DNA from: Asterias rubens
Lineage: Eukaryota
Assembly: GCF_902459465.1 (NCBI RefSeq)
Contig: NC_047063.1
Span: 7,068,001 to 7,132,000, forward strand
Length of the DNA: 64,000 nt
Reading direction: 5' to 3'
How positions within the stretch are numbered: position 1 is the first letter of the stretch; each line of letters begins with the position of its first letter. The notes beneath the pieces are model-generated. The model did no database searches. It was not told where the DNA came from and saw only the letters and a program-made list of their open reading frames with translations. Position numbers and translations under genes: made by a program. This document shows, one piece after another, positions 3,401 to 43,876 of this stretch.

Positions 3401-3481
3401 AATAAAAAAGAGTCATCATTAAACATTGATTTTTCCAACATCCTATTTTAATGTGCATAATAATTATCTTATTGTTTATAT

Positions 3482-4119: not shown

Positions 4120-5310
4120 GACGAGGATTAACTACTACCAACTACCTGGATAGTTTGGAAAGGGAAAAACGAGATCAACTCATCAAAATTGCCATTTCCC
4201 TTGGAAGAAAGCACAGGCAGAGGAGAAGGAAGCGATGTTTTGAAATTCAGCAGGAAATTGCAAAACGGATTGCCCTCAAACACACAAAAAAGGAACAGAC
4301 ACAAAGAAACAAAATTGAAAAGAAACTGTAAACCCCAAACTTGAACATTGCCGCTGAATTTCCAGATATGCACGCGACTAAAGGAAGAACTTGCAGATGT
4401 ACTTGAAGGAAAAATTGTGCGACGACAAAAAGTACACGTTATTAGTGCTGGGCGAATAGTGAAATTTTGTTATTCGGATACCGCTGGCCAACTATCTGAA
4501 ATTAACCGGATATTCAAATAGTTTTTTCGCCGCTAGAGGGCAGTATATAAAAAAAAAAAAAACTAACAAAATATATATATATTTTTTGCCGCTAGAGGGC
4601 GCTGTTCATTTGTGAATGAGATCTTATGGGCGGTTTTATGTTAGTTTTAGACTGTCACTCGGTTCATTCATAAAAATGACCGGATCTAATTTAAAGATGG
4701 CGATTTGCTGTTTCTTTTGATCGTGATTGACTCTACGTGAAGGAAAACTTTAGTAATCTTTGAACAAATTATGTCAGAAATGTCATTGTTTTAACTCTTC
4801 ATGGAGGTGAGCATAGTTAAATACTTAATTGATGCTGTTTTATGCTGTCTTAATAGAAGTTTCATTAGGATTGAGACAAAACATTCATATCAGTTGTCGC
4901 CCGACGTCCGCGGATGTTCGGGTATTAAAGAATATCTGGTTACTTGGATGTAATTACAGAACTATCCGGTTTATAAATAGGTATTCGCGCCCATTGCTGA
5001 TATCCGGTTAAGAAAAAAAAGGCATTCGCGGTTATGGATAGGAAAACCTATTCACAATTAACCGGATATTCAAATAATTTGCCCAGGCCTAGTACACGTG
5101 TGGTAGGACAGTGAAAATAGCAAAAAAAAACAAAAGTACCATGGCAAAATCAAAAAACTGAAAAAAAGAAAAGAAAAAAAAAAGCATCAGGGACTTATGT
5201 GATTGGATACTGGAATGAAGATGAAACCTTTGATGATGCCATAGATTATGACATTTGTAAATATGCATCGGTTTGGGATTTAAAGGTATAATTTGTTGTT
5301 CATTGGAAGA
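4120..5310 (+). pseudogene. Transposase copy G: C-terminal fragment (subfamily 1) with Tudor-like tail, split by a MITE
   Basis: NYLDSLEREKRDQLIKIAISLGRKHRQ aligns with DSLDILEEEKRAKLIEVAITLGRKHRR in copy B; GKIV..VHVW..YHGKI..WNEDETFDD aligns with the copy B tail. Confidence 0.75.
4443..5091. mobile_element. hAT-like MITE
   Basis: Ends TAGTGCTGGGCGAA / TTTGCCCAGGCCTA; GTACACGT on both flanks (left copy offset by 3 nt); interrupts the copy G reading frame. Confidence 0.7.
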
Positions 5311-5775
5311 CGGAAGTCATTCCTATCATCTAGTTTCAAAAGACCAACTTTGAAAATTTCATTAAAATCGGTGTTAACGTTTTTTGGGAGGACCATTCAA
5401 CTGTTGAATGGGAAATGCTATTCCCCATTGGAAAATAGGTCTTTTTGGTCGCCGGTGCGGATGGGAGTAATAGTGAATGTCACGTGAAGTAAGTTCCACC
5501 AATATGTATGTCAGTTATATAATGTTTTTTAAGCCCGTTCAAATGCACTCCTTTTGATTAACATAGGTTTAAGTTGTATTTTTATGTCACATACCTTCAT
5601 AATGGAGTTTGAAAATAATTTTTGGTTTGGTGTGTGTTGATTTTGGCCCTAGTCTAGTGAAATGTTTGCAAAGTTTTGTGAACATTTGATGGGGTCACTT
5701 GGGAATTTTTCAGAAATTTTGTTGATTTGTACTAAAGTGTATATAGGACATACCGGGGAAAAAAATCGGCTACAC

Positions 5776-5882
5776 TATTTCGCCCAGGCGGATTACTATT
5801 CCGCCGGGACCGATTGCTATTTCGCCCGGGCGGATAACTATTTCGCCCGGGCAGATTACTGTTCCGCCCAGGCGGATTACTA
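5776..5882. repeat. Five imperfect 21-bp tandem repeats (CTATTTCGCCCGGGCGGATTA), probably subterminal repeats of a DNA transposon
   Basis: Repeats read directly; preceded by TACCGGGGAAAAAAA. Confidence 0.7.
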
Positions 5883-6424
5883 ATTTTCCTACGAGTCATA
5901 TTATGATTATAAATAGATTTCAATTGTGAAAAAAAACCAATAATTTCGAATGCTCTTATCGTTGGCTTTATTTCATCCTTTTACCCATGGTTCGCGTTTC
6001 AACATCATAGTTAACTTTGTTTACGGATGAAAACGAGGTTGTAAAATATATTTGGTGACACGTCTTTGACACGCATCCGGTGCGTACGCATTTCAGCCAG
6101 GCCAACCTCGTTCTCATGCGTTCGATCTCGCAGCCTGCTCATGGCCGGCTGGTCAACACATGAGGACGAGTATAGCATACACACTTCTTGTCCCCCGCCC
6201 CCCTCCCCAGGCGCCAAAAGCACCGGTACCCGGCCACAGGTAGAGTACGTAAGTATCTCTTACCAGCGAACAAGTGCCAGTCAACAGGTCACATGGGCAC
6301 GCCACCTAAGTTAAGGCGGCAAATTGGAAGGCGGTATTACATTAGGGTCGTACCTTTTATCAGTGTCGGTTGGCTTAGCTTCCTTTTGTGATTTAAAATA
6401 ATTTTTCTCTTTGACATTGTAATT

Positions 6425-10367: not shown

Positions 10368-10659
10368 TTTTGAAAATGCAGTACACACTTTAACTTGTTT
10401 GTTGTCACTTTCAATTGGTTTTAATGGTTAAGGCCTAATTGTGTCATGCATTGAAAATTATGTGCTACTGTTACCATCTTGCCATACTACTTGTAATCAC
10501 CTTGCTTGGTCAGAGTCGAGAATAAAAGTAATATTTTAAACACTCTTCACCTTTAAAAAGCATTTCACAGAAAAAGTTACAGAAATCTTTGTGTGAAATG
10601 CTTTTTAAGTCAAGATAATACTATTCTTAAATTCACTATAATTGTTTTTACAGATATAT

Positions 10660-11049: not shown

Positions 11050-12181
11050 ACCTACAAATGGAGTGCAGACCATTATAGAACCCCATGAGCTGTATTGGCC
11101 AAAACACCATAGTGCCTGGGGAACATAGGTATAGGGTAGAAAACCCCATGGGGTGCATGGGTAAAGCCCCACGGGTATAGGGTAGAAAACACCATGGGGT
11201 GCATGGGTAAACCCTATGGGTATAGGGTAGAAAACACCATGGGGTGCATGGGTAAAACCACATGGGTATAGGGTAGTAAACACCATGGGGTGCATGGGTA
11301 AAACCCCATGGGTATAGGGTGGAAAACACCATGGGGTGCATGGGTAAACCCTATGGGTATAGGGTAGAAAACACCATGGGGTGCATGGGTAAAACCCCAT
11401 GGGTATAGGGTAGAAAACACCATGGGTAAAACCCCATGGGTATAGGGTAGAAAACACCATGGGGTGCATGGGTAAAACCCCATGGGTATAGGGTGGAAAA
11501 CACCATGGGGAGCATGGGTAAAGCCCCATGGGTTTAGGGTAGAAAACACCATGGGGAGCATGGGTAAAACCCCATGGGTATAGGGTAGAAAACACCATGG
11601 GGTGCATGGGTAAAGCCCCACGGGTATAGGGTAGAAAACACCATGGGGTGCATGGGTAAAAACCCCATGGGTATAGGGTGGAAAACACCATGGGGTGCAT
11701 GGGTAAAACCCCATGGGTATAGGGTAGAAAACACCATGGGGTGCATGGGTAAAACCCCATGGGTATAGGGTAGAAAACACCATGGGGTGCATGGGTAAAA
11801 CCCCATGGGTATAGGGTAGAAAACACCATGGGGTGCATGGGTAAAACCCCATGGGTATAGGGTAGAAAACACCATGGGGTGCATGGGTAAAACCCCATGG
11901 GTATAGGGTAGAAAACACCATGGGGTGCATGGGTAAAGCCCCACGGGTATAGGGTAGAAAACACCATGGGGTGCATGGGTAAAACCCCATGGGTATAGGG
12001 TAGAAAACACCATGGGGTGCATGGGTAAAACCCCATGTGAATCCATGGGAAATATCCCATGGGAAGTTCTCCCATTTATACATGGGGTCCAATTTCTCCT
12101 TGGGTTTCCCATGGGGAATCGCCCATGGGAAATCATCATGGGTTTCCCATGGGAAAACACCATGGGAAAATTTTGTAAGGG
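11050..12181. mobile_element. EnSpm/CMC-like non-autonomous element end with subterminal tandem repeats
   Basis: Ends TTTTGTAAGGG (reverse complement CCCTTACAAAA), the same terminus as at about 59732; abuts truncated copy A; partner TIR not found. Confidence 0.45.
11126..12037. repeat. 46-bp minisatellite, about 20 copies (GGTATAGGGTAGAAAACACCATGGGGTGCATGGGTAAAACCCCATG)
   Basis: Tandem array read directly; grades into degenerate CCCATGGG repeats. Confidence 0.95.
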
Positions 12182-14330
12182 GATGCAAAACAGAGATTTA
12201 TGGACTGGGGAAATTCACCTTACAAACTGCCCTCTGAAATTGGACCCAGACCTCGGAAAGATCCTGAACCGTCATTTTTTGATGTACAGGAAAATGAAAA
12301 ATTGACACAGGAAGTTAAAGAACTCAAACATGAAGTGGAACATCTACAAAATGAACATGAAACCCTTTCGCAACGGCCTTCTCACCATGAACAAAAACTG
12401 GCAACACGTAGAGAAACTTACAATAAATGCACAATTTCTAGCCTGCACAAGGAAAGAAATGATTTGGACGATAAGTTGGATTCTGCCGCAGCAAAGAAAC
12501 AAAAACTGACTTCGAAGATCAAGAAATTAGATAAAGATTTATTTAAGTCAGAAAATTAATCTGCGACTACAGCAAAGGAATGCCAGGAGAGTGAGGCAAG
12601 GCTCTTTGATCGAATTTCAATGTTAGAAGAACAACTTAACAGGTAAAGGAGTTCAACGCTGAGATCTTGTCCCAGTTGGAGGAAGAAAAGATCGGTAAAG
12701 CTAAACTTATGGAAACCAATGCAGTTGCTAAATTAACTTACATAGGGGAAACCAGAAAAATGCGTGTACGAATTGCTGGGGTTAAACACCAGTTTTGAAA
12801 ATGTCGGGCCGGTGATCGAGGCTGTCTTGTCTATGGTGGGCAAGACAACAGGAGAATCTGACACTGGCTACTGATGAGACCCCCAAGTGTGGCGACTATT
12901 ATATGACGTAAACCATCAGTGGTGATGATGATTCGTATGTTTTAGGGATGAGGGACATAGAGTCAAAGTCTGCAGAGGATACCTTAACAACACTAAAAGT
13001 AATTCTAGATGACATTAATGATATTCACAATGGACTTAAACAGGAGAATGATGAAAAAAATGAGGTAGGATTGGAAATCCTTTGTAAAATAAAAAATTTC
13101 ATGAGTGACAGGGCAGCAACAGAAGCAAAGTTCAATGATATGCTGCAAACATACAGAAAGGAGTGCCTAAAATTATACAAGAAGGGGTGGGAGACATTCA
13201 CCCAGGAGAAAAAAGACAAACTCATACAAATGAACAAATTTTTTTTGTGGGTTACATTTGCTTGTGTCGATGGCAGAAACTATATCTGCATCTTTCAAAA
13301 AATTTGAAGATATACACACCGAGGGGAAAATTGTAGGTGCACCAACATTGCCTGGCCTAAGAATTCAGACAGGGGGAGAAAGTGGCACTGTCCGTCTAGT
13401 GCGCACAATGTGTAAAGCTTTTGCCAAAGGTGCAGATGAGAAGAGTGGCTGCCATCGACACTGGCTGTACCTACCACCTAAAACAACTAGCAAATGATTT
13501 TTTGGGGAAAGTCCATGGTGCTTCAAATTACTACTCAAAGCAGTGCATGCGGATCTCCAAGTACCTGTATACCTTGCTGGATGCCGCGTGCTTGGCTTAC
13601 TTAATCAATTGCTGACAGCACCGCTATGGCGTGTCACTGAAGCTGAAGGACATATCCTTGATATGTGTACGACATACACGACACTTAACCTATTCTTAAA
13701 AGAATGCATTGATGATCGTGCCAAACTTGTTCAATATGCACACGGTGAAATTAGTTGTTTCAACGAAGAGATCATCACCAAAGATGAAGTATTTTTTTCG
13801 GTTACTTGCCATGATGCCAATGACGAATTGGTTTACTCATTACTTCACCACACATTTATGGCACTTCAGCAACTTGTAAGTAGAGTCACAAAGGATTATC
13901 TACCAGGAGGGAAATACCATCAAATACAAAATGACAAAGAATTTCGCCTACAAACATCATCTACTCCGAAACACAACAAACTCCCAGAAACAATATTTGG
14001 TTATCTTGATTTTTGGTGAAAAAAAGATCAAATGTTTCTGCAATCACAAATGAGGCACAGATCATGTATATATTTAATAAAACTTCTGAATATATTCACA
14101 CTATGCCAGAACATGAATTTGATGAGAAACTGAAACAAATTATCACAACATCACGTAACGAACAAGTTCAAAAAGCTAAACAACGAGAAAATGAAAAAAA
14201 TAAAAATCTGCTGAAAAAACAAGAGGAAAAGCAACAACAAATTGAAAAGCAGCGTCTTAATGAATACAGACGAAGAGAGGAACTGGCTACCACAGTTATT
14301 GACGCAAGCCTATGGCAAAAAAGACAAACT
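12182..14330 (+). pseudogene. Transposase copy A (subfamily 2), 5'- and 3'-truncated, multiply frameshifted
   Basis: LATDETPK, MSDRAATEAKFN, NKFFxGLHLL, LYLAGCRVLG, KHNKLPETIFGYLDF; colinear with copies E and F. Confidence 0.85.
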
Positions 14331-14621
14331 GTAATAGAAAAGTCTGCCTCGATTGACGTCACAAAAGGGCTAGGCGGAGTCAGGCCCCCAAACAACTTTA
14401 TATATTTTTTAAACATATAAATCGTGACAAACAATTACTAAAAAAATTGTTTAATTGTTCGTAAGCATATACTCTTATGTTTGAAAGAAAAAAAATTCTA
14501 TTTCCAGGTGACTTTAATCGATCAAAATCGGTAAAGAAATTAACATTTTGTGGTAGTTTGAAGTAACGTAGTTTGCCGGTCCGGGACGGGGCATCGCGCA
14601 CGGGATCTGCGGGAAGACCAA

Positions 14622-15772: not shown

Positions 15773-16018
15773 GACCAACAAATCTCGGTTTGTCACAGCT
15801 TAATCCCCCCTATTCTTCAATATAATGGATGATTCCGGAGTGTTTCTGGTGACTTAGAGCCATGTGAAGCTATTTTTAGGATGGGGAAACCCTCAGTCTT
15901 GAGCCGTGTGTTGTGTCAAAATTCAAAATGGCGGCCAGTAGAAGCGGAAAACGGCGAGTAGGTAAGCAACCCCTTTTCTTTCTCAATATGTCAAATATGA
16001 AAATTTACATACGAGAAC

Positions 16019-16490
16019 ATGAAAATATACATTCTAAAGTTTATTATGATGTGTAGATTGTTGATATTCGTTGAGCAGGCAATCACTAAATCCTACAAAA
16101 AGGATTTTCCACTAATATTTGCGGCCCTCGACCTCAATTTTCCTAAGCACTTGATGGGACTACTCAACAAAGTAAAACGACATGTTGCGAAATCCAAAAC
16201 AACCAACATCACAGACCTCCTCCAAGAAATGCCTGGACTTGCAAAACATCACAAACACACCATAGGACCACACTGTGAGACGAGCGGAGTAACACCAGCC
16301 TCGCTACTTCATTCAACAGACATCAGTGCATCCAACCTCACCAATGCAATGGTCATTGAAATATATCGGTTCCGGGAGAAATCAAACACAATCTGGCAAA
16401 CTGTTCGGGATGTATGGTGGCCAAATCTATTTTCAGCTGAACTAAGTCCTCCATCAGTTGGCACTATCCGGGGTAGCTGGCACAACTATG
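16019..16490 (+). pseudogene. Transposase copy H: N-terminal fragment
   Basis: LTNAMVIEIYRFREKSNTIWQTVRDVWW resembles the LKNKHVIQLF...TW...W block of copies D, E and F; upstream CAAAATGGCG and a GTAAG donor at about 15960; truncated at the 16502 terminus. Confidence 0.5.
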
Positions 16491-16501
16491 GAGATGCATG
16501 T

Positions 16502-18208
16502 GGGCGATTCCGCGGTACGCTTTTGAGGGTCCTTCATCATTCTCCATTCTCTGGCTGCAAGACTCCTTTGATTTAAGTGTTCATCTTTTGTATTGTAAAA
16601 CCTGAATATCTAGGCTAGATCCCCATGTTCACACAAAAGTGAAAGATCAACTGGTTTAGCTGAGAGAGCTCTGCGAATATCGGTAACAAGCGTTACGCTG
16701 AATGGAAAGACCAAAAAAATACTGAACTTCATTTCAACTTTGTCCTAAAACTAACCAGTCTACTACAAATTTGTTTCGTTTGTCATCAAGTACTATGCTA
16801 AGGTTTATCATACCAAAATAATTACAATAATCCAAGTGTAACTTTTTTAGTAAATTGCAAAATAGTCGGTAACACGCGTTACGTTAACCCGCGTTACAGT
16901 TTTTTCAAGCTACATGTTTATATGTTATTTCAATTGTTGAGTTACAAATTCTCAAAAAATATCAACGGATATCAGTTGCACATCATATTTAAAGAGCAAA
17001 AAAATAATTAGACCTTTTTCTTAACGTTTTGCTCTACATATCACAAAATTAAAGGTAACACGCGTTACGGTAACACGCGTTACAATATGTCTTGCTTCAA
17101 TTGTTGAGTTACAATTTCTCAAATTTATCAACCAATATCAGTTGCACATGATATTTGAAGAGCAAAACAGTAGCTATAGACCTTTTTATTCATTTATTTT
17201 TTTAGTTGCTCTACATATCCCAAAATTTGTAGTGCATGCGAATGTTTACTATCACGGGTTCTCAAGTTTCCTAATAATACGATTCCTAAAATAAAATGTT
17301 TTGTCATCTTTAGGACTTGCCAACTTCCAATTCCTTCAAGCAGGGGGCATCCCTCAAACACTGAAGTCATTTTCGTCACTTACTTGCATTACATCACCAC
17401 GGAAATAATCCCAATCATTAACCACAAAAAACAACTCCCCACGCTTATAATCGTTAATTTGACCCCCCCATTCAATCGACATGTCCTTTGCCGTGGGATG
17501 TTGAAAAGTAATTCCACCTCATTCACATTATGCTTGCCTACCAGGCCATGGAACGTGGCTGGCATATTTTAGTTTTTAAACTGTGTGCTGTGCCCATCTG
17601 ACCATTGTTTACAGTGTATTGGGCTTGGAAACACACGTTACATTGGTAACACGCATTACATGGTAACACGCGTTTCAGTTTTCGGAGCCTCATTGTGAAG
17701 CGGTGGTTAAGAATTCATCTAAGTTTTTACTGTTTTTACATGAGCCCTTATTAGTAGGAGGAAAATTAAAAGTTGCAGCATTTGAAACCAGGTTGTTTAG
17801 TAATTATATTTAAAAGGGTGTGTTTTGGTAACGCGCATTACGCTCTCTGAGAGTACCTCAAACCACGTGTTGACATAAGTGTACACTGTATATTGATTTG
17901 TATTGAAATTTTACATATTTTTTCTAAAAGAATACTGCCCATACTTGCTCTCATTTATACTTTTTTAAAGAAAATTGATACTGACTTATAAATATAGGTC
18001 AAATTGATAAAACCATTAAAAACATTACTTTTTTCCCACCAAAGTGCACTCTTGGAAAAGTAATTTTTCCACAGTTAACAATATCCGAACAGAATAAAAA
18101 AAATTCCCCCGACACTTGGACATGTTTGGAATGATATCAAGATAAAAATTCAATTCTGAGAGCAATTTCATTTTTCTAAGAAAATTCCACCTTTTCGTGG
18201 AATTGCCC
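16502..18208. mobile_element. Sola2-like non-autonomous element, about 1.7 kb
   Basis: Starts GGGCGATTCC and ends GGAATTGCCC; many GGTAACACGCGTTAC motifs (about 16682-17675); no clean TSD (ATGT/ATAA). Confidence 0.6.
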
Positions 18209-20169
18209 ATAAGTGAGGGGATTTGTATAAAACCCAGTAGGCCTACATTTCTACTTTAAAACAAAGATATCTGCACAAACATTCATTGTGGCAAATTTCA
18301 TGGTTGTAGGTGCTTGCGTTAACCCAGGAGAGCCTCACACATATTTAATTAGGTCGTTTTGCATGTAAATTGAATAATTAATTAGGCTAATTTGCATAAC
18401 ACTGTGAAAAACTGGCGAGTAGGTTTGAGTTGTGTACTACAAGAAAAGAAACACTTACTGGGTTTTAAATTGTGAAAAGACGATAAAAACATTAAGACAA
18501 AAATTGAAAAAGTCAAATTGTTTAAAAAGGCGCTTTACACGTCATACATTTTTTCGCATAAAAATATAACCGAACATCAGATTTAAATATTTTTTACAGT
18601 TCTGTGTTCCTTTCATGAAGCTCTAAAATATGAGCCTAATTTTGAAGGCATTAAGATAACTTTTAAAAATAATATAACATCCAAGTAGATCTTTGTAATT
18701 TTGATTGAAAGATACAACTTTCAAAACAAACAAAGCGTAGGCCTATAATTTTTAATTGTAGAACCTGAATGCTAGTAATTTTACTACCTTGCAGTAACAC
18801 TGCTAGTTGCGATAACGTAACCCTCCTGCCGACCGCGTAGCCGGAGGGTTACGAGTCACTCCCATTCGATGCAGGGCGAAATATTTTAGTCAACTGATTT
18901 GCTAATTTTTTACCACTTTAAAAAATAATGACACAAATTCTATGAACACGAACTTAATCCTCAATGTCTAATAAATAACATTCAAAAACACAATTGAGAA
19001 AATATTTTGAAAAAAAAAGGACAAAAACTTACCAGATTCCGGGAGCGAAACAGTCACAAATTTCCCAGGTCTTATTTTTGAACCTGTCGCTGGTTACCAT
19101 GTGCTGACCCCAAGCGCTGAACCCAACCGCTGACTACCTGACGACCGAGCCGCAGCCGAGTTTGACTAAACCATTCTGTAAAAGGGGTGTTACAAGGGGT
19201 GCTGCAGTGCGGCAGTGCTTTAAGTGAGTGAACAGCGGGCATAGTAAACGGACAGCGCACACGCACTGTCGCGCTGCCTTATAACACCCCTTTCATAGGT
19301 ACGTGACAATCCGGGGATCCCGTGCGTAGCTCCGTGCACCCCCGAACTGATCGTTCATTGACCGGCCGCGTAGTAAGTTGCGTCATCAGTTTGAGGGTAG
19401 TAGTCGTATTTTAAGAGCATACTTACTGCACAGGTGTTGATGACGTAGTACACATGTTCCCGTCTATCAGGGTCTTGGATTTTTTCGATCCGAGCTGTAA
19501 AAGTGAAAACAAAAAATCCGTGAAAGTTTTGGGTCGTCAAAGTCATCGATTCGTTATCCGAAGGTAAGCTTTGTTTGTTTTAAAACCTATACTCCTTGTT
19601 TGATCATATGTTCGTCTATACTTATTGTGAATTTGAAGTGATTCTGATAACCCCCACTTTAAAATGGCCGGATTTCATACTGCCGGATGCTTTATGTAAA
19701 ATACTGTCACTTCCTTTTAAACTACTTTTAGGCTCTAAAATCATTCTTAAAAATGAGACTTAGGGATGTTTCCCATTGACTTTACGGAAAAAAAAGTGTA
19801 AATTATGCCTCACAGACACCGATGATTATGGATTTGTAAGGGTGGTTTTTCAGTAGAAAAAAATGACATAAGCGATCCTGACGTCACGTGACCCAATCTC
19901 GGCAATGTGATTGGTCAGTGCCAATGTTTACAAACACAGGCTGCCTTGTTTTTCGACGGTGTATTGCTTAACCTTCATGTTGTGTGGTTTAAGGTCATTC
20001 CGCGTTTTTTTATAGATTGTTTTTAATTTAATTAGTGTTTTAATAAACAGGTTATTAAAGTTTTTTTTAAATTTTTTATATAAAGTACTGACTCTTGTGT
20101 TAATGCCAGTCCTTATAAATTTATATAATTTGTCATTTTCACATTCTGCTTTTTATTTTGTTTATAGGG

Positions 20170-24098: not shown

Positions 24099-24999
24099 AA
24101 GATACATGTACATGTTACTCAATTGTAAGTGGGTAAAATGTTGTTCAAAACAAAATCCTCAAGTCGCATGACTTTGTGTTTTTTGTTTTTGTTCGTTAAG
24201 AAAATTGTCCCTTTTTTTAATGTCAGTAACTAAAATTAAGGAACCCATCTTTTATAGTAAGTAAAAAAGAGTTGCAAAGTGTTCTGTGTTAGTAAGGCTT
24301 TCTTTACTGAAAGTTTTATTAAAATCTGTGGGATATTACAAAAGTTATGACAATTTTTGGTTCAGAACTCTCCGAAAAGTCCCAAAAAGGTCACAAGTTT
24401 TCTTTGTTTTCTATTATAAAACAATACAAAATTAAGCCTGTCAAATTAAATCTTAAAATATTCATAATTTTTTTAATAATTGACCCATGACCAAACAATT
24501 TATATCATTGTAATGCTTACTGTGAGCTCTTTCCAATGGTATTAAAACTAAGCCAAAATGTTGAATTTGAATTTTGTTGTCACATACCTACCAGAATGGT
24601 TTAGTCCAACAGCAATGAACATCGGGAAGTCCCAAAATGGCGAAGCGACAGGTTCAAAATAGAACCTGGGAAATTTGTGACTGTTTCGCTCTGGGATCTG
24701 GTAAGTTTTTGTACTTAATTTCAAAATACTTTCTCAATGGTGTTTTGAATGTTATTCATTAGATATTGAGGATTAAGGTCGTGTTCATAGAATTTATGTC
24801 ATGATTTTCGATAGGGGTAAAAATTGAGCAAATCTGTTGACTAGCTGTCGAATATGTACGTGTTTGACCATTTCGCCCTGCATCGAATGGGAGTGACTCG
24901 TAACCCTCCGGCTCCGCCGTCGGCAGGAGGGTTACGCTATCGCAACTTTAACAATGCTGCCTTACCAAAGACACGCGCACGCAGTGATGTTTTTACTCA

Positions 25000-31323: not shown

Positions 31324-32971
31324 TTAAGGAAATTAAAAATGCACCTCATTTGCATAATTTGAAATTTTATTCAGGTTGTAACGAGCTGAAAGATTGCAGC
31401 TGACATAGTTACTGCATGTTTTAAACATCAACACAACTAAAAGTCACTAATAAAAGCTCTGGATCATTTACGCATATTGATGAGCTGGATGAGAAAGTAG
31501 CCCGGTCCATTTGGTGAAATTGATTGAAACACCTTATTGTTGGACAAAAATTAAAAAAATTAAGCATCACATGGAACTTGTTTGGGGTTTTATTTGGTGT
31601 CCGGCACACTTAGAAGGGAGATATCGATAAGTAAACCAATTCCTGCTCTTCAAGACTTTTTTACACACCATTAATTATGCTAATTGGTAACTTTTCCTAA
31701 TTTTGACCTTTTTCCGCACTAATTAGTTGAAATCTTCTTCTCAAAAAATTAAATATCTCCGGAACCCTTTGACCTACAGAGATGATCTTGGTGTCATTTT
31801 ACTTCAGAAGCAGAGAGGAATTCATTAATGCATACAAAACTAACCTATCTGTAGCGACTGCAAACACGTTTTCTGCGCAACTTCTGTGCATATTGATCTC
31901 GGTTACTTCGCGCTGTACAGAAAGTTGGATCCACAGAAGCTGCACGCATTGTAACTACGATAGATCGTTTGCGCAGTGTGTGAAGTGCATTGTGGGGGAA
32001 CGACTATAGCGTCTTTACGTCAGCTACAAGCTTTGCTACCGTATCTACAACGCACAAAAAACCCGATCAAAATCGACCAATATTTGGCTGAACTACGTCA
32101 TCTTGAAAGGTAAGCAAAATTCTTCATATGAAGTACTAATTTGTGAGTAAAATTTAGAGTATAGTCCATACCGATTAAAACCGACATGAAAAATGAAAAC
32201 TACGATAGATAGTTAGCCTAGAAAAGTTGTTTGCCCGGGTATAGCGTGTGCCGAATTTTGCCGCATCGTTTTTGAAAATTGCTTTTTTTGCTGGGTGCAG
32301 CAAGTAGGTAAAATAGTCTGATTAAATGGTTAGGCCAATATATTATTCCGTGTGCTTCTTGATAAATTTATTTAATGATACATATTTTATTTTGTGAAAC
32401 TTAAATACCTTTTATCACGTTTTTAGTTCCGTTTATGTTGATAAAATCGTTTAGAAATCAGAGGGGTGGGTTGTACATGAAAGCACAGCGGCCAACATCG
32501 TAAGTGAGGCTGTTCCATCAATTGAACTGTATCCCTCTGAAATGAGCTTGGCTTGTGCAATGTTGCAAAATAGGTGGAATTATGATGTTACTTTATTATC
32601 TAATGTCTATAATTTATTGTTAACTCATTTTTAAACCCTACCTTATCCTTTTGCACATTTTAACTAAAGGTCCTTCCTTAATAAAAAAAAATTAAAAAAG
32701 TTTGGGTCTTGTCCATTTATTTAACAAAATAGGGTCTCCTTTTTAGAATTAAATGATTTCTTGATTTTGTCGTTTGTTTTTTTTTCTTTTTCTTTTTTGT
32801 GGGGGATGGTTGCCTTCCATGGACTTTTTAATTCTACATGAATGTCTTCAGGCAATAATTATACTTTGTTAATAGTTTATTTTTCTACAGGGATGAAGTT
32901 GTTAATTGATTCTTATCTATTTCTAATTTTACTTTTGCAGGCAAGATAACTCCTAACTTTCTGAAGACACC

Positions 32972-34735
32972 ATGGGAATTTCCCTCGAAGTCTGGCGCCA
33001 ACGGATTGGTTCATTTCATCCACCAAGATCTAAGGCATCAAGAACACTGTGGCAGAATGAGGTTTTATTTGCCTCATCTAGCTGGAGACTGGATCCTGGG
33101 GGCTCAACCTTTATTATCATCTTACTGGCTGCTACAATAGGTGAGGATTTTTATGGATCAGGTTGTAAGTAAAGTTTAATGACATCTAGGTTAGTTGGGT
33201 CAAGAACAAATGACATGGTACAAACGACATTCATATTTTAAAATAACTTAATGTACACTGCTGCCCAAGGAAACAATTCTATTTTTGCATTTTTGTGACA
33301 AAACATTTCATTTTTTCTTTTGCAGGAAATTTGATACTGCAGACACAACTACCGCATCATTATGATGTCTTGGCAACATGTGGTGATGTTGAGTCAAACC
33401 CTGGTCCATCAGTGCTCCTGAGTGATGAGTTACTGCAGAGTCTGTCAAGTGGCAACCATTCAGCTATCCAGCCAGTTGAAAGATTGAAAAACAAGCATGT
33501 GATACAACTGTTTCAACTAAAGGAAAAGCACAAGTGCACTTGGGACACAGCGGTTACATGGCTTAAGCTCCTCATCAAGGACTTCCCTGGGCCTTCTGAT
33601 GTCAACACAACCTGGACGCGAAATATTGGAGATAGTTGGAAAAGCCTCAAGGCTGCACGGCGGCGCCTTCAGAGTGACAAAAACAAAAGTGACAAGGGCA
33701 AAGAACAGTTTGATGCTTGGGAGGAAGCCACATATCAACTACCATCTGTGCGTGGTCCGAGAGTTCCAAAAGTGACCCCACCAGGTATTTCCAAGTTTGA
33801 GCTAGAATGTCTCACAGCCACGAGTATGAAACTTGAGGAAGAAAAAAAAGAAGCAATGAAAGAAGTCAACAACCTCGCCCTTCAGGTTGAAGCACTGAAA
33901 CAGCGTCAATCACCTCATTCGCAAGCAAACCAAGATAGACGTGAACAACGAAAAAACACTCAAATAAAGAATCTCCCAACAGGTGAGAAGACACAACTTG
34001 CAGAATTGGACAAACTGAACACAAAGGTTGATAAAATAAAAAAGACAAAGAGAAAGTTCTCTTCCGAGTTTAATGGTTCATTGGCAAAAATTTCACGTAT
34101 TGAGGAAGACACCAATTTTGAAAAGGATGCCTACATTCTCGGAATCGAGGATGATATAGTTTCTGCAGAACGGAAGATAGATGACTTAAAGGAAGAGCTA
34201 CTTCAGTGTAAAGAGGTAAATGCCATATTAATGGATGCCGCTTTAATGTGGAGAACAAAATTAGCAGAAGAACAGAATCAGGAATTGTTACTTTTAGTAA
34301 ATGGCTCTTTCACAAATAATTTGCGAAAGTGTGTTTATGAGCTGTTGGGGTGCCATGTGGCACAAGACAAAGTTCCCAAAGTAATAGAAAGTGTTCTAAC
34401 CCTTGCCAAAGCAAAAATAGACAAGTTACCTAGCAATACGACAATCAGAAACATAAACAAAGAAATGGTAGCCGTCTCACAACTTCACCTGGAAAACTTG
34501 ACAAAAGCAGGCAACCTCTCATTACAAAGCGATGAAACGCCCAAGTTTGGTGAAAGCTATGAAGCTTTTATTGCCGATGATGACAGTGGTAACTCATTCC
34601 TTCTTGGAATGAGACACATGGCCGACAAGTCTGCACAGAGTTGTCTTGACACACTTAAAGAAATTATAAGTGACATAAATGGTACTTGTGAACGCATGGG
34701 GTCAGATCATGTTGGCTTCAAAATATTAACAAATT
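32972..34735 (+). pseudogene. Transposase copy D (subfamily 2): leader, 2A motif, N-terminal domain, coiled coil, first catalytic D; 3'-truncated
   Basis: Exon 32972-33140 splices in frame (GT-AG) to 33326; CGDVESNPGP at about 33379-33408; QSDETPK; homology stops just before MSDRAA. Confidence 0.85.
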
Positions 34736-34854
34736 CCATCACTGTTAACATTGAATTTTGCTAGCCGTTTTACATCTAGATACACGATAATAATATTTTG
34801 ATAAATATTTATTTATTTTGTTCCATTTTTCCTCAGGAATGATCACCAAATACC

Positions 34855-37800
34855 ATGGGTGTTTCCCTAGATGTATGGAGGCAACGCATTGGCTGTCATC
34901 ACTCCAGACCCTCTCGTCGATCAAAACACGAGACCACCTTCATGGCAGGGGGCATCTCTCTTGATGCAGGCATTGGTATCCGTACATACTTGGCTGTTAT
35001 GATGATTTCATCACTTTCACTTTTGATGTTCTCCAGTCAGCTCTGTGACATCACTTTATCTGGTGATGTAGAGTCAAACCCCGGACCCCCTGTTCCAGGT
35101 GCAACCCCACCACTTTCTGATGATTTGCTGAAGTCTTTGAAGAATAGAAGTTGCACTGCAGTGAATCTTGATCACACAGTAAAGAACAAACACATCTTGC
35201 AGCTGTATTCAATGCAAGAAATGCTTCCCACATCACCATGGTCGGCAACAGCAGAGTGGATGCAGTTCATTCTACCAGGCTGTACATTCGGGGAAACCGA
35301 GTGGAGTAATAAATTCAGGTTAAGTTGGGGGAAAATTCACCAGAAGAACCGTGACCTGCGAAAAAGCATCGGACGAGCAGATGGGATGAAGCGGTTGGCG
35401 GATTGGGAGGAGGAAGAATACAAGCTGCCGAAAGTCAAAGGTCCTCGACCATCATCATGCAAGTCTATAGAAACTGCACCGCCACTTGTTTTTGACTCGA
35501 AAGTTCTGGAAGCAGAAAATAAAAAACTGCTTCAAAAAAGCAAGTCACTGAAAACTGACAATGAGGAACTCAAACAAACAATTGAAGATTTACGGCAACG
35601 ACCATCCCCCCATTCACAGAAGGTTCAAAAACGTAGGGAGAAAAGATACCAATTAGCATTGACTGGTCATAAGAACACAATTGACGAACTCGAAAAAAAA
35701 AACAGAAAAACTCTCCAGTCGGATTCAACAAGAGAAAAAGAGCAAGAGAGCACTAACGAACAAGTTCCAGCGGTCATTGAAAATGGCCAAGACGGATGAA
35801 GATCCTCACAAACAATGGACAGAAACGTATGCAACGTCGCTCGAAAAAGAAGTTGACGAACTCCACCAAACTGTGAAAAAGCAAAAACAAACAATAGATA
35901 GTCTGCTTAAAGATAACGAAAGTTTGAATACGGAAATTGCACAGTTGACCACAAGAAGTGAGAAGGTTTTCTTTTTCAATGAAGAAAAGAATGAGTTCTT
36001 TCCTTTTGTCCATAAATGTGTTTGGAATCTAATTGGAAAGCATGTTTCCTTTGCAAATGTTTCTAGTGTAATTAAAATAGTTTTAGAAATGCTTAAGTTG
36101 AGGTATGATCGGTTACCTAGTGAAACCACTATTCGCAATATGAAATATGAATAATGAACGAACCTTGGTTTCACAAATTAAAATAGCAGGTATTAAAGAC
36201 AAAAAAAATACGACACTAGGGACAGTCGAAACACCTACGAATGCAGATATATTCATGACGTACACGATTACAGACGACGATGGAGAAGCTCATCTATTGG
36301 GTCTGAGGCAAATGGCTTCAAAATCTGCAAAACATACATTAGATAACTTAAAGGAAACCCCGTCCGACATCACAGACATTTGCCAAAAGTCAAATGCTGG
36401 CAATGACATTGGCCATAAAGTTCTATGCCAAATAAGGAACACTATGTCGGACAGGGCAGCAACAGAAGGACTTTTCAACAACATGTTAAAGTCATATAGA
36501 GAAGAGTGCCTTCCACTATACATGGACAACTGGGACAATTTCAGTTCCCCAGCCAGAGAAAAGTTGTCCGAAATGTACAATTTTTTCTGTGGCCTTCATC
36601 TGCTAACATCAATGGCTGATTCAGTGGCAGCATCATTTAAACAGTTTGAAGAAATACACTTGGAAGGAAAGAAGGTTGGTGCTGCAGCTGAAGCAGGCAT
36701 AAATGTCTTTAATACATCAAGTGGCATCATCCGTCTTGTTCAGAATGCCTGCACGGGGGGCGGATGAGAAGAGTGGCGTCCATAGGGCATGGAAGGTTTT
36801 TACGAGCAAAGTGGGGATTATGTCTACATACTTCCAGCCTTTTCGAAGTAACAGATTTAATGTTGTATTTCTGTTTGGTGGTCGAACATATTTTTTGGCG
36901 AGTCACATTCAAGATTTCCGTGGCAACGTTCATGGTACCTCAAATGGACTTTTGAAGGCACTTTTCGCAGATGTGAAGGTCCCACTATACTTGGCAGGGT
37001 GTAAAGTTTTAGGCTTTATAAACAAAACAATAAGTGCACCATTGTGGAGATTGACTGAGAAGAATGGTCATATTCTTGAGATGTGTGACACCTACACTGG
37101 ATTGGTCAAGTTTCTTGAGCAGGTTACATCGGAGGAGAAGATTCTTGCAGATTTTGCATTTGGTCATGTTGGTTATTTTGATGAGTCTCTCTTGGAAAAA
37201 GATGATGTATACGACTATCTCTTAAGCCCTGGTCCCTTCGATGAAATCGCTCTCTCTCTCCTTCAACACACTCTCATCACTCTTCTTCAACTCTTCAAAC
37301 GTGTCACAGCAGATTACCTTCCAGGTGGAAAATTTCATGATGTCAAAGATGACGTAGAATTTCAAAAAGCCACAGCATCAGCTCCAAAACATAACAAACT
37401 ACCTGAACGAGTATTTGGTTACCTTGACTATTTAATACACAAGCGCCCGAATTCCACTTCAATAGCAAATGAAGCACAGGTCATGTATGTTTTTAATAAA
37501 ACCGCTGCATTTGTAGACACAAAAAGTGATAAGGAGTTGAAAGATCTGGTTAAAACCGTTTGAACAGAGTCAAGGAAAACACAAGTCACAGCAAAAAAAC
37601 GAAGTCAAGAAATAATGAGCTACTGGAAAAAAAACAAGAAGAAAAATCAAATGCTATGATAGAAAGTAGGCTTAGGATGCTCGCCAAAAAAGAACAGCTG
37701 ACTAATGACATAGCAGAAAGTGGGCTCTGGCAGTCAGAAGAGCAGATGGCAGAGTACCTAAACACACAAAAAAACAGACAAAAAGAAATTAGAAGCAGTA

Positions 37801-38150
37801 AAGAGACAAATACGCTTTCGGAGAGAAGTACTCAACCAGTTTATGGAGGGAGACAAAGGATTAATACATTTACCATAGTTGTCCCCAATACTAAAAAGCG
37901 AATTGACAAACCACTCTGTGACATTCAGTCACACCTGACCAAAATGATCAATGCAGCAAAATCAGTTGCTCATTCTCAGTCTGTGCAAAAAACACCTGAC
38001 GATGAATATCTTACAATCCCTTTGTTAGTTGGCAAGAATGTTTCTCATCTTTGGAATACAGATGACGGTTCAGAGTGGTACACAGGCAATGTTATTAATA
38101 TTAGTCAAGTCCCGGGATTTCCCTCTTGGTATAACATCACATACGAAAGT
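34855..38150 (+). pseudogene. Transposase copy E (subfamily 2), near full length, frameshifted, Tudor tail truncated
   Basis: MGVSLDVWRQRIG, SGDVESNPGP, MSDRAATE, FFCGLHLL, FRSNRFN, KHNKLPERVFG, PLLVGKNVSHLW...WYTG...VPGFPSWYNITY. Confidence 0.9.
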
Positions 38151-38451
38151 GTGCAGAGTGGTAAACGCGATCTCGCGAGACTCAATGGCTTTGTTGCCAC
38201 GTATGAACCAATTGGACGTACTTAATACATTCATCGGTACTGTATGTTTGTGCATCACAGTATACCTTCGTATCATCGAAAGTCCGAAAGAAATCGTCCA
38301 ATTTGTAGCAAAAATCTTGATCGTCGAATGCGGTAAGTACATTAAAATGTTGATTTATCATTGAACCCCCCCATGAAACTGCAAGAAACTTTTAAAAAAT
38401 GAAAGAAGCATGTCCCATCACCCTAGAAAAGATACTACCTCATCTGTACGC

Positions 38452-39989: not shown

Positions 39990-40608
39990 CTGTACGCGTT
40001 GTCACGTTCTGCCTAACAGCAACGCAATTTAGCGGAACACTGCCCGGACTCTGCCCGGGCTCAGCGGCGCGTGTGTCGGTAGGGGTCCGCACAGCTTCCG
40101 CCATTCGCGCACCGTGTCCGGGTGGATTTCAAACTCGGGGCTACGTCTGATTTAGGGCATTATACTCATCAATACTTAGGTAGCATTCGGTTTTGTTTAA
40201 AGATTTATTATATAGTAACTAGTTTTAAGTCCTATGAATGGTAATTAATAAGAAATTAATTTTTTTTTTTTTTTTTTTTTTTAACTGGCATGTGATTAAG
40301 CTTTGTGTAGTTTAGTAAATAGTGATATGTGTTGCTGATAACTGATATATTCTGATGAAATTGACCTATGATGATAAATGATTTCCTATAGAATTATTTT
40401 ATTTATAATAATAATTTTATTAGTTCTAGTTATGATGAATGATTATTGTTCATGATTATTTATTAGTAATTGGACGATGATAATTGATTTTCACTTAACA
40501 CTCGCATTTTTTTCTCTCTCTCTTTCCATTTATTTTGCATATATACATGTATACATATATATTATGACAATAAAAATTAATTGTTTGACTTTATCTTTAC
40601 AGAACATC

Positions 40609-43600
40609 ATGGGTGATGAACTACAGCAGTGGCGTCAGAGAGTCGGCTTATTTGCCATGCCCTCTGTAAAAACTCCAAAGAGGCCGAGGCAATTTCAACA
40701 CCATGGAACCAACAGTTTGCCATTTAGTAGCCCATGGCTAGTGGTACTATTTGGCTTTGCTGCAGTGTTTGTCCTCGTTGACTCAGTCCTCGTTGTACAG
40801 CAGAAAGCTCCGCTAGCATTTGCCATCGAGCCTTTGACCAACACTAGTCTTCCCATCTGTCGGCTTGACCAGCTTCTTGTTTGTGGCGACATCGAAACTA
40901 ATCCTGGTCCTGAAGGCTTTACAGATGAACAACTAGAAGCATTGAAATCTGGTAGAGAGCTAGGGGATGCCCCTTCTGTTCTTTTGAACATACACATCCA
41001 GCAACTTCACGAATTGAAGAAGTCTTCTTCTCAGGTAACATGGGATGATGTTCTGTTGTGGCTTGCCCAATGTACGAATATACAAGTGACGGATCTCCCG
41101 AATGGAAAATCCCTCCGGAAACAGTGGGAAACCATGCATGTCAAGAGACGGGACCTGATGAAGAGATTCCAACGTAGCCCAGAACTTTTGCATACATGGG
41201 AGGAAACCCCGTACACATTTCCCCAGTCAAAACCAATAGGGCCACGATCAAAGGCAACAACTTGTAAAAGCGATATCGAAGCACTGCAATCCGCCAACGA
41301 AAGTCTAGCTCGTGAAGTGGGGGAACGAGTGTCACCTCATAAGTTAACAGTTTTGGGTCGGCGAGAAAAAAGACAAAAGAAAACTATCGGATTGCAGAAG
41401 GAAACAATCAAAGATTTTGAAAAAAAGATACACACACAGGACAAACTTTTGCACAAAGCAAAAAGTGCAAAACGAAAACTGAGCACCGACAAAGAATTTT
41501 TGACAAAGAAAGCAGCAAAGATAGACCTGAGCAAAGAGAGTAAAGTAGAACAGTATGAAACAGTCATAACAGCTCTAGAAAGACAGGTAGAAGAGCAGAA
41601 AGAAACCATTTTGGACTTGAGAGAAACCAATGCTGAACTCCTTCATCAACTCAAGAAACTGCAGTGTTGACTTCAACTAAAGACGGCGCCAAATGCTACT
41701 CGGCAGAAACACGGTCATGTATTTACAAGCTTCTCACTGCCCATGTAGCATTTGAGAACATTTCCCAGGTGATGTCAGCTGTATTAGAACTTGTGGGAAA
41801 GAAAGCGGATAGCCTGCCAACAGAAAGGACAGTTGCCCACATGAATGATGAGCGGCTTCTTCTTTCGCAACGTCAGATGGAGGAGCTCCAGAAAGAAACA
41901 AATCTCACTGTATCTACTGATGAGACACCCAAAGGGGGGGATATTTTTATGACTTACACTGTTTCTGGGACAGAATCATCGTATGTGTTGGGGTTGAGAG
42001 AAATGGTCTCCAAAAGTGCAGAGGACACACTTTCAACTTTCAAAATAATATTAGATGACATTTCATTTATCTGTAGTAACGGTAATTCTAACCTTGGTAT
42101 GAAAATTCTGGCACAAATAAAAAACACCATGAGTGATAGGGCAGCAACAGAGTCTAAATTCAATGACCTGCTAAAGGCATATAGGGAAGAGTGCCTGCCT
42201 AAAGTAAAACAAAATTGGGGTGATTTCACAGATGCTGCTAAAGAAAAAATTGTATATATGAATAATTTCTTTTGTGGGCTGGACTTACTTGTATCTATGG
42301 CAGAAACCATTAGCAAAAGTTTCAAAGGTTTTGAAGGTGTGTTCCTGGGGGGGAAAAAAAGTTGGAGCTGAGGCAGTCGCTGGAGTATCTGTATTTGGTT
42401 CAGACAGTGGTATAGTTAGGCTTGTTCGCACTACCTGTAAGGCACTTTCTAAGGGTGGGGATTAAAAAAGTGGGTGTTTCAGAGCCTGGAAAACATACAT
42501 GACACAGAAGGGATTTGCTTCAAGATATTTACAAAATTTCCGAGGCAACAGGTTTAACATTGTATTTTTGCTAGGGGGACGGGTTTTTCATGTTAGAGAT
42601 TATGTGTACGATTTTCTTCACAATGTTGTTGGACAAACAAATGGTTTGTTGAAAGCTGTCCATGCAGATATACAGGTAGACTTGTATTTAGCTGGCTGTA
42701 AAGTGTTGGGAATTATTAACAAAATGGTAACTGCTCCTCTCTGGCGTGTAACTGAGACACCAGGGCATATTCTTGACATGTGTGATATATATTCGAACAT
42801 GAACACCTTTTTTGACCAAATCCTTCAGTCTGATGAAAAACTTTCTGAGTTTTATTGTCAAGGATGATGTTTTTAATTCCCTGTCATCTGAATGGGAAAA
42901 AGATGACATCACTTTAAGTCTAATGAGGCACACAATAATTACATTACAACAGCTAATTAGTCGAGTTACAGAAGATTACATGCCTGGTGGAAAATATCAC
43001 AATGCCAAAAAATCAAAGTCTTTCAGAGCAGACACTGCTTCCACACCTAAACATAATAAATTGCCTGAAAGAGTGTTTGGATACTTAGATTATTTAATTA
43101 AGAAACGCCTGAGTGCCTCTGCAATTGCCAATGAGGCACAAATAATGTTTGTTTTTAACAAGACATCAGATTTCATGACTTCCTTGAGTAAAGAAGAAAA
43201 GAATGAAATGATAAATAGTGTAATAGGAAAACCCACAAAAGAACTCCGAGAAAAGGCAAAACAGAGAGAAAAAGTAAGGCATGAAGCACTAGTGAAAAAG
43301 CAGCAAGAAAAACAAATTCAACTAGAAAAAAGTCGTAAACTAAAACTAAAACGCAAAGAAGATTTAACTAACTTAATAATAGATGCTGGTCTTTGGCAGT
43401 CAAGGGAACAGGTAGATGGTAAAATGAATGAATGTGATAACAACAATGAAAGATTCAATGCTTGTAAAAATCAGATAAAATTTCGAAGAGACATATTGCA
43501 TCAGTTGCTTCCTGACGACAAGAAATTTAAATTTTCTGAGCAAGGGATAAAAAAGACTTGGACTGCTATGCGTGATCACTTATACAAATTTATAGATGCT

Positions 43601-43876
43601 GCTTTGTCTCATGTTGAAGGGGAATCAGCCCAAACTATGACTTCCAATGATGAAACTGTTAGTATTCCCTTGTTGGTTGGTAAGATGGTAACCCACTTCT
43701 TTATTTCTGAAGGGGAAAGACTACCATACACTGGTAAAGTTATCAGTCAAGTACCAGGGTTTCCACAGTGGTTTAACATAGTCTATGATGATGACGAAGC
43801 TGTTTATACTTACAAGTTAATTGACGACTACAAGGAGGGAAATTTAGAGCTACATGTAGTACCTTTAGATATATAA
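40609..43876 (+). pseudogene. Transposase copy F (subfamily 2), full length with a few frameshifts and stops; complete Spindlin-like Tudor C-terminus
   Basis: ATG follows a splice acceptor; MGDELQQWRQRVG, CGDIETNPGP, STDETPK, MSDRAATE, FFCGLDLL, FRGNRFN, KHNKLPERVFG, LLVGKMVTHFF...YTG...WFNIVY...VYTYKLIDDYKEGNL. Confidence 0.92.

What the first reader, a model, noticed from the sequence alone, without database searches (positions are those of the whole stretch)
4120..43876. Eight divergent members of one unplaced transposase lineage clustered in 40 kb
Seen: copies G, A, H, B, C, D, E and F share D...SDRAA...CxxH...RGNR...HNxxxE but fall into at least three subfamilies too divergent to be recent tandem duplicates. 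Known: the CxxH insertion-domain signature is shared by hAT, MULE, P and Kolobok. Here ERVFG looks hAT-like, while long TIRs with a 9-bp TSD look MULE-like. Inference: possibly an unclassified lineage with local homing, either into its own relatives or into a chromatin state read by the Tudor domain.
Basis: partly seen in the sequence, partly recalled or inferred. Interest (0 to 1): 0.72.

Follow-up and report, generated by a model that had tools for sequence, protein, structure and literature searches.

The report
hAT transposons caught in transposon trap
These are eight broken copies of a hAT-type jumping gene that sit, all facing one way, among many unrelated transposons in what is likely a host silencing (piRNA) cluster; the family carries a predicted histone-mark reader and, in one branch, a predicted ribosome-skipping peptide.

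Summary
The cluster is real, but the lineage is not unplaced and family-specific homing is not needed to explain it. Eight remnants from three deep subfamilies lie on the + strand. Five keep a catalytic core (27-57% identical) and none has an intact ORF. Relatives elsewhere in the genome are mostly 4.5-6.8 kb with 9-17-bp TAG...CTA inverted ends and 7-bp target duplications (20 of 22 exact). The 'long TIR + 9-bp TSD' belongs to an unrelated MITE that copy C landed in. The core model (pLDDT 95.8) matches Hermes (Z 17.9) far better than P (9.6) or an IS256-type enzyme (7.5), so this is a hAT, likely Repbase hATw (recalled; no sequence compared). Density beats random placement (0 of 200,000 simulations). 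However, unrelated transposons crowd the same regions in the same orientation (11 of 12 here, 17 of 18 at a second cluster), as in uni-strand piRNA clusters. No small-RNA data were available. Not found in the papers searched: a C-terminal Spindlin-like Tudor that keeps the methyl-lysine cage, and a 2A/StopGo motif fixed in one clade. Three end-adjacent junctions hint at weak local targeting.

The parts
4120..5596 (+). Copy G: 3' remnant of a C-clade element (last ~60 codons plus 3' end), no catalytic motif
   Evidence: 92% to G000:C8:20816303; 3' terminus at 5596; motif scan
3479..4015 (+). Partial copy of a dispersed non-coding repeat of at least 1.7 kb; not a TIR of the family
   Evidence: single unpaired hits genome-wide; same repeat at 16497-18211
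12050..14390 (+). Copy A: frameshifted transposase of the 2A clade, both ends truncated, xNR segment deleted
15793..18671 (+). Copy H: internally deleted relative of the D-like subfamily (15793-16487 and 18275-18671), split by the 1.7-kb repeat
   Evidence: 72-88% to L028/L029
16497..18211 (-). Dispersed non-coding repeat inserted in H
   Evidence: 89-91% to L060, L062, L063
18804..24947 (.). High-copy ~860-bp MITE (18804-19293 + 24592-24947) with ~300-bp arms and a 9-bp flank duplication (8 of 9 match); host of copy C
   Evidence: uninterrupted copies L056-L058; flanks
19296..24590 (+). Copy C: full-length broken element with 14-bp TIRs (TAGGTA.GTGACAA); no recognisable TSD here, but sisters L065 and L066 have exact 7-bp TSDs
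25119..27352 (+). Copy D: 5'-truncated, frameshifted transposase, ~50% to the L018 subfamily
31852..34733 (+). Copy B: 5' TIR plus the N-terminal half up to the first catalytic Asp; left TSD CTATCTG
   Evidence: contigs of two other organisms start at 31852-31854
33385..33408 (+). 2A/StopGo-like motif DVESNPGP in B
34843..38225 (+). Copy E: near-complete frameshifted transposase (leader with 2A, coiled coil, core, Spin/Ssty)
35065..35088 (+). 2A/StopGo-like motif DVESNPGP in E
38028..38153 (+). Spin/Ssty (Spindlin Tudor-like) domain of E, truncated by a frameshift
   Evidence: PF02513 E 1.6e-6, above cut-off
40456..43876 (+). Copy F: near-complete frameshifted transposase
40888..40911 (+). 2A/StopGo-like motif DIETNPGP in F
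43676..43819 (+). Spin/Ssty domain of F with aromatic-cage positions F/Y/Y/Y
   Evidence: PF02513 E 1.1e-8; Spindlin repeat 2 E 9e-12
46588..48537 (+). Unrelated 649-aa DUF7869 ORF (transposase-like; Sola-like by recalled motifs), co-oriented
55932..55952 (+). 3' TIR matching B's 5' TIR (11 of 14) plus right TSD CTATCTG, closing a 24-kb nested unit
55953..55981 (+). Last 29 bp of another family-type 3' end (...TGACATCCCTA) into which the B unit inserted
56980..59019 (+). Unrelated LINE reverse-transcriptase remnant, co-oriented
   Evidence: RVT_1 E 1.4e-24

Best explanation
The eight pieces are decayed copies of a hAT-fold cut-and-paste transposon family (short TAG...CTA ends, 7-bp target duplication; likely Repbase's hATw) that likely accumulated here because the locus is a uni-strand piRNA-cluster-like trap retaining many kinds of transposon in one orientation. 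Shown: the element anatomy, the hAT-like predicted fold, three deep subfamilies arriving independently, nesting inside other repeats, and co-location and co-orientation with unrelated transposons. Inferred: the 1,100-1,200-aa transposase excises the element and inserts it at CTAnTAG-like sites with a 7-nt stagger. Copies landing antisense to a long cluster transcript (predicted to run on the - strand here) would be kept because they supply piRNAs, then decay. The C-terminal Spindlin-like Tudor is predicted to bind methylated lysine and may bias insertion. The 2A motif is predicted to release or throttle an ~80-aa hydrophobic leader from the transposase.
For: Fold: AF2 core model pLDDT 95.8, pTM 0.92. 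VIA-align gave Hermes Z 17.9, 318 residues, 3.6 A, versus integrases at most 10.5, P 9.6, ISCth4 7.5, Transib 7.3. All Foldseek hits with E<=0.001 were Hermes (10 of 10). The nearest named Atlas clusters were DUF659 and hAT/ZBED1 at 0.76-0.77, a lead only. Ends: 20 of 22 mapped elements have exact 7-bp TSDs and 9-17-bp TIRs; boundaries of six subfamilies were first set by aligning sister copies, independent of the TSD. Repbase holds hAT families annotated '7-bp TSD' (PMC4455052, passages). Trap: non-family TE coding loci lie on the family's strand in 11 of 12 cases at C2:7.02-7.17 Mb and 17 of 18 at C8:17.02-17.17 Mb; 190 kb of 19 control stretches gave 3 LINE pieces and no transposase. Pfam labels at C8 include P, piggyBac, RAG1/Transib, Harbinger, Polinton ATPase and RT. 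An unrelated transposase-like family has 15 of 56 loci within 100 kb of a family core versus 2% of the genome. Snail piRNA clusters are enriched for Kolobok, hAT5 and hATw up to 108-fold (PMC6128900, passages). Uni-strand clusters hold antisense insertions (PMC13172572, passages).
Against: No small-RNA or stranded RNA data: the only run on record as RNA held 0.06 of the words and all runs were contigs, so 'piRNA cluster' rests on anatomy alone. No hATw sequence or definition was found; its 7-bp TSD is recalled. No Pfam hAT model hit 7 cores at E<=0.5. At the third cluster (C8:20.6-20.84 Mb) Pfam-labelled ORFs split 4 to 3 by strand, although ORFs of 250 aa or more were 17 to 1. The queries came from the clusters themselves (non-self hits at C2: 7 of 7 on +), which biases the comparison with controls. 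TSD exceptions: copy C has none, the ninth copy at C2:7136765 has 6 bp, and L029/L030 and the C8 fam6 copy are mismatched. Three end-adjacent junctions exceed a rough chance estimate (3 of 36, P about 0.002).
Confidence: 0.66

Rival explanations
1. Chromatin-directed targeting: the Spindlin-like Tudor reads a histone mark (H3K4me3- or H3K9me3-like) of these islands and steers insertions there, so the cluster is built by the element rather than filtered by the host.
For: The cage positions of Spindlin1 repeat 2 (F141, W151, Y170, Y177; PMC3967050, passages) are aromatic in most aligned family domains: F/W in 77 of 94, Y/F/W in 83 of 94, Y/F in 77 of 77, Y/W in 66 of 75. 47 of 92 proteins of 900 aa or more carry the domain at E<1e-3. 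17 of 51 loci outside C24 have a neighbour within 100 kb.
Against: Unrelated transposase families share the same islands. A chromatin tether does not by itself explain one orientation. Subfamilies whose C-terminus misses the Spin profile (C, D, L024) cluster too. Binding is untested.
Confidence: 0.17
2. Self-homing or target re-use: elements insert into or beside the 3' ends of relatives, because ends and TSDs resemble the CTAnTAG target, building head-to-tail stacks.
For: B unit inserted 29 bp inside a relative's 3' end (55945/55981). Two elements are joined by a shared 7 bp at C8:17036311/17036303. A 5' end lies 23 bp beyond a 3' end at C14:6704982/6704958. Rough P 0.002. 13 of 14 neighbouring pairs share a strand.
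Against: 0 of 22 rejoined sites match the 21-element library across the junction. Copy C sits in a MITE inside another repeat. It explains at most 3 of about 36 mapped insertions and not the co-oriented unrelated elements.
Confidence: 0.1
3. An unclassified superfamily intermediate between hAT and MULE.
For: No Pfam transposase hit; only 10-14% identity to Hermes; 7-bp rather than 8-bp TSD; Atlas neighbours at 0.91-0.93 are unnamed.
Against: The MULE-like ends belong to other repeats. Hermes stands 7 Z units above all other structures. 7-bp hATs exist in Repbase.
Confidence: 0.07

Closest known systems
hAT superfamily (Hermes transposase, PDB 8edg/4d1q)
   Same: RNase H-like D-D-E core with a helical insertion, CxxH after the second Asp, short TIRs, single ORF; best structural match
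   Different: 7-bp TSD instead of ~8; TAG...CTA ends; ~1,100-1,200 aa with a coiled coil; no BED or Dimer_Tnp_hAT Pfam hit; C-terminal Spindlin-like domain; 2A leader in one clade
hATw (Repbase/Dfam subgroup; named for amphioxus, Hydra and pond snail annotations)
   Same: 7-bp TSD (recalled as its hallmark), marine/aquatic invertebrate range, enrichment in piRNA clusters reported for snail
   Different: No hATw sequence could be compared; whether described hATw carry Spin/Ssty or 2A is unknown to me
Uni-strand piRNA clusters (flamenco type)
   Same: 100-200 kb, dense with fragments of many TE superfamilies in one orientation
   Different: Dominated by DNA transposons rather than gypsy; piRNA output not measured
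Spindlin1 Spin/Ssty repeat 2
   Same: Sequence match E 9e-12 to Spindlin3 repeat 2, 0.9-2.6 A over ~62 residues in the best rows, cage positions aromatic
   Different: One repeat fused to a transposase rather than three tandem repeats; W151 usually Y; binding untested
2A-like StopGo peptides of APE-type LINEs and sea-urchin NLR leaders
   Same: Canonical GD(V/I)ExNPGP after a hydrophobic stretch near the N-terminus
   Different: Here on a DNA transposase; the four 2A papers checked do not mention transposases in their main text; activity untested

Membership tests
hAT | DDE RNase H-like core with a helical insertion, Hermes-like fold | tested here: met
   Z 17.9, 318 aligned, 3.6 A; D, C, H, E invariant in 99 rows and first D in >=90%
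hAT | [quoted passage not shown] | tested here: met
   136 of 144 cores; the motif is shared with P, MuDR, Kolobok and Dada, so not diagnostic
hAT | Short TIRs | tested here: met
   9-17 bp in 22 of 22 mapped elements
hAT (canonical) | 8-bp TSD | tested here: not met
   7 bp exact in 20 of 22, none of 8 bp; 7-bp hAT families exist in Repbase
hAT (canonical) | BED finger / Dimer_Tnp_hAT profile hit | tested here: not met
   no hit in 24 proteins at E<=0.01 or in 7 cores at E<=0.5
hATw | 7-bp TSD (recalled definition) | tested here: met
   the definition itself was not found in the library
hATw | Sequence similarity or shared clade with Repbase hATw transposases | not testable with these tools
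   no Repbase/Dfam sequences available
MULE/MuDR | Long TIRs with 9-11-bp TSD (recalled) | tested here: not met
   long arms and the 9-bp flank belong to a MITE
MULE/MuDR | IS256/MULE-like fold as best match | tested here: inconclusive
   ISCth4 Z 7.5 versus Hermes 17.9; no eukaryotic MULE structure among the listed rows
P | P-type core (TNP-like RNase H profile, P transposase fold) | tested here: not met
   no PF21787 hit while true P-like ORFs nearby hit it; 6p5a Z 9.6, 7.2 A
Kolobok | TTAA 4-bp TSD and RR...YY termini (PMC9587614) | tested here: not met
   7-bp variable TSD and TAG...CTA ends
Dada | No TIRs, 6-7-bp TSD, insertion in small-RNA genes (PMC3706591) | tested here: not met
   TIRs present and targets diverse; TSD length overlaps; RNA-gene targets were not scanned for
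Uni-strand piRNA cluster | Dense multi-family TE fragments in one orientation | tested here: met
   11 of 12 and 17 of 18 non-family loci; third cluster weaker
Uni-strand piRNA cluster | Single-strand piRNA production antisense to the TEs | not testable with these tools
   no small-RNA or raw stranded run was offered
2A/StopGo | D(V/I)ExNPGP core motif in frame | tested here: met
   B, E, F; 13 of 16 rows of one clade with SH-aLRT 100, the other 3 being N-terminally truncated
2A/StopGo | Ribosomal skipping activity (the motif alone is not sufficient, PMC3708506) | not testable with these tools
Spindlin-type methyl-lysine reader | Four-residue aromatic cage | tested here: met
Spindlin-type methyl-lysine reader | Binding to methylated histone peptide | not testable with these tools
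   needs an assay

The most novel reading that the evidence does not exclude
A widespread invertebrate hAT lineage uses a Spindlin-type methyl-histone reader to choose its integration chromatin, driving it into piRNA-cluster islands and onto relatives' ends. One clade throttles its transposase with a captured 2A/StopGo leader, apparently undescribed for a DNA transposon. Its single Spin/Ssty repeat may be the source of the vertebrate Spindlin family.
Probability: 0.17. Interest if true: 0.8.

Novelty: new variant of a known kind. Interest (0 to 1): 0.44.

Why it matters
The cluster itself is most likely ordinary host defence anatomy, and it predicts three uni-strand piRNA loci in this genome that can be tested. 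The protein is the more interesting part. A hAT transposase with a conserved Spindlin-like aromatic cage would make chromatin-guided target choice by a cut-and-paste element directly testable, and it bears on where the vertebrate Spin/Ssty repeat came from. A working 2A leader would extend translational recoding from viruses and retrotransposons to DNA transposons. Near-identical intact copies (99.9% pairs with 1,130-1,198-aa ORFs) suggest recent activity and a possible new transgenesis tool.

Tried and rejected
Pfam found no transposase family for window ORFs or cores; a PDB sequence search found only Spindlin and coiled coils. Long-TIR/MULE reading rejected. Recent tandem duplication rejected: cores are 27-57% identical and fall in separate clades. 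General homing into relatives rejected. Origin of the 2A leader not found: a region search returned only the query, and the own-genome search hit only family copies (9 matches). Two review papers expected to define hAT subgroups were not held; searches for hATw or 7-bp hAT definitions gave labels only. The tree is the quick tree (the careful search did not finish), uses 99 of 149 available cores (every second library protein beyond the first 28 was dropped) and has no hAT/MULE/P outgroups, so it does not test superfamily placement. The genome census (60 core loci from four single-protein searches) is a lower bound. Contig C24 holds mirror-image duplicates and was left out of the neighbour counts. 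Three look-ups of earlier scan findings returned nothing. No complex prediction was run.
Full report
Observation. The window is G000:C2:7068001-7132000 in a 418-Mb genome. Translated searches show eight family-derived pieces, all on +: G 4120-5596, A 12050-14390, H 15793-18671, C 19296-24590, D 25119-27352, B 31852-34733, E 34843-38225 and F 40456-43876. A ninth lies 5 kb beyond the window. None has an intact ORF. The claim that all share the motifs is too strong: G and H carry no core motif, B only the first Asp, and A, E and F each lost one; C and D keep all. The five cores are 27-57% identical and fall in three separate clades (quick tree of 99 rows), so they arrived independently.

Element anatomy. 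Four single-protein searches of the genome gave 60 core loci, a lower bound. Several have 1,100-1,200-aa ORFs and 99.9%-identical sisters. Aligning sisters fixed the boundaries. Across 22 mapped elements the ends are 9-17-bp TIRs starting TAG, and 20 have an exact 7-bp TSD with consensus near CTAnTAG. Part of that set was found by requiring a TSD or TIR match, so the count is not fully independent. Exceptions are copy C (no TSD), the ninth copy (6 bp), L029/L030 and one C8 copy. The 540-bp inverted pair is two copies of a dispersed repeat. In the window, a 24-kb unit 31852-55945 is closed by matching TIRs and the TSD CTATCTG; contigs from two other organisms start at 31852-31854.

Superfamily. 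Pfam gives no transposase hit. The family is large: 1,531 representatives at E<=1e-30 in a full-length profile search. A core model from 99 sequences reached pLDDT 95.8. Against 48,161 chains Hermes scored Z 17.9 (318 residues, 3.6 A), the next best 10.5, P 9.6, ISCth4 7.5 and Transib 7.3; Foldseek's ten significant hits were all Hermes. The xNRFN motif plausibly corresponds to the hAT RWNS motif (recalled). Kolobok (TTAA TSD; PMC9587614, passages) and Dada (no TIRs; PMC3706591, passages) do not fit. Repbase holds hATs with 7-bp TSDs (PMC4455052, passages). I recall hATw as that group, but the library gave only its name, so hATw is a likely label (about 0.6), not a tested membership.

Clustering. 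Six cores lie within 64 kb against 0.009 expected; 0 of 200,000 random placements reached five. Two more clusters lie on C8, and 13 of 14 neighbouring pairs share a strand. The bias is not specific to the family. At C8:17.01-17.17 Mb all 26 ORFs of 250 aa or more are on one strand and carry P, piggyBac, RAG1/Transib, Harbinger, Polinton-ATPase and RT labels. Non-family TE loci share the family's strand in 17 of 18 cases there and 11 of 12 at C2:7.02-7.17 Mb; 190 kb of control stretches gave three LINE pieces only (the queries came from the clusters, and non-self hits at C2 were 7 of 7). An unrelated transposase-like family (EnSpm-like by recalled motifs; no Pfam hit) has four loci around the window, all on +, and 15 of 56 loci within 100 kb of a family core versus 2% of the genome. 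A P-like family has four loci in the C8 cluster, the query included, all on -. The third cluster is weaker: 4 to 3 among Pfam-labelled ORFs and 17 to 1 among long ORFs. This is the anatomy of uni-strand piRNA clusters (PMC13172572, passages), and snail piRNA clusters are reported to be enriched for hATw among others (PMC6128900, passages). No small-RNA data were available, so piRNA output is inferred.

Homing. None of 22 rejoined insertion sites matched the 21-element library across the junction. Yet three junctions sit at relatives' 3' ends: B 29 bp inside one, a head-to-tail pair sharing 7 bp on C8, and a 5' end 23 bp beyond a 3' end on C14. A rough estimate gives P about 0.002 for 3 of 36. 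Re-use of target-like sequence near ends is a plausible minor contribution.

Accessory modules. The C-terminus of E and F passes the Spin/Ssty cut-off and matches Spindlin repeat 2 best. The H3K4me3 cage of Spindlin1 is F141, W151, Y170 and Y177 (PMC3967050, passages). The equivalent columns are aromatic in 77 of 94, 83 of 94, 77 of 77 and 66 of 75 aligned domains; 47 of 92 long proteins carry the domain, and C, D and several other subfamilies have a diverged version that misses the profile. B, E and F carry GD(V/I)ExNPGP after a hydrophobic leader. The motif occurs in 10 of 177 library proteins, all within one clade of support 100 (13 of 16 rows, the rest truncated). The motif alone does not guarantee skipping (PMC3708506, passages). 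Four 2A papers had no 'transposase' in their main text (passages only), and three searches found nothing on either fusion (listings only). Their supplementary peptide tables and Repbase Reports were not seen and may already list these proteins.

Verdict. A known kind of element (hAT, likely hATw) in a known kind of locus (likely a uni-strand piRNA cluster). The unplaced-lineage reading fails and homing is at most a minor term. The Spindlin-like reader and the 2A leader are real, conserved and apparently undescribed, which keeps interest moderate.

Noticed in passing
window 31852-34733: The B subfamily is near single-copy depth in organism A but high-depth and ~99% identical in organisms B and C; organism C covers little else of the stretch at 90%. 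This hints at recent activity or horizontal transfer; contamination is not excluded.
   Followed up: no
G000:C24 (829 kb): Family and EnSpm-like copies occur as mirror-image pairs (for example 224789- and 577333+), suggesting a giant inverted duplication or an assembly artefact.
   Followed up: no
G000:C8:17029929 and 17156285: An inverted repeat with inverted flanks, 126 kb apart, brackets most of the C8 cluster.
   Followed up: no
window 46588-48537: Intact 649-aa DUF7869 ORF with transposase-like motifs (Sola-like by recall), at about twice single-copy depth in laid runs; a family-like 5' end TAGGGACCGC lies at 46205 with no matched TSD.
   Followed up: partly
window 1269-2992: RecQ-helicase-like remnant (AcademH-like by recall) followed by a 42-bp tandem array of 27 copies that stays open in two frames.
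   Followed up: no
window 20930-21707: A 30-bp in-frame repeat in copy C has expanded to 26 copies, longer than in sisters L065/L066.
   Followed up: partly
window 38451-39990, 49409-54663, 55352-55486, 55787-55922: High-copy non-coding repeats of 1.5 kb, 5.3 kb and a 135-bp palindrome; one family copy (L028) inserted into the same palindrome elsewhere.
   Followed up: partly
L038:644-4834 (C2:7152644-7156834): An intact Gypsy pol ORF is the only opposite-strand TE locus in the C2 cluster, consistent with a young insertion not yet filtered.
   Followed up: no
L043:1506-2366, L052:8628-9404: RAG1-like ORFs (PF12940, E 1.9e-35 and 1.5e-8) in the C8 cluster, possible Transib/ProtoRAG-type remnants.
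   Followed up: no
G000:C15:12.0-14.2 Mb, C2:6.60-6.66 Mb, C10:11.2-11.3 Mb: Further islands where this family and the EnSpm-like family co-occur; candidate additional clusters.
   Followed up: no
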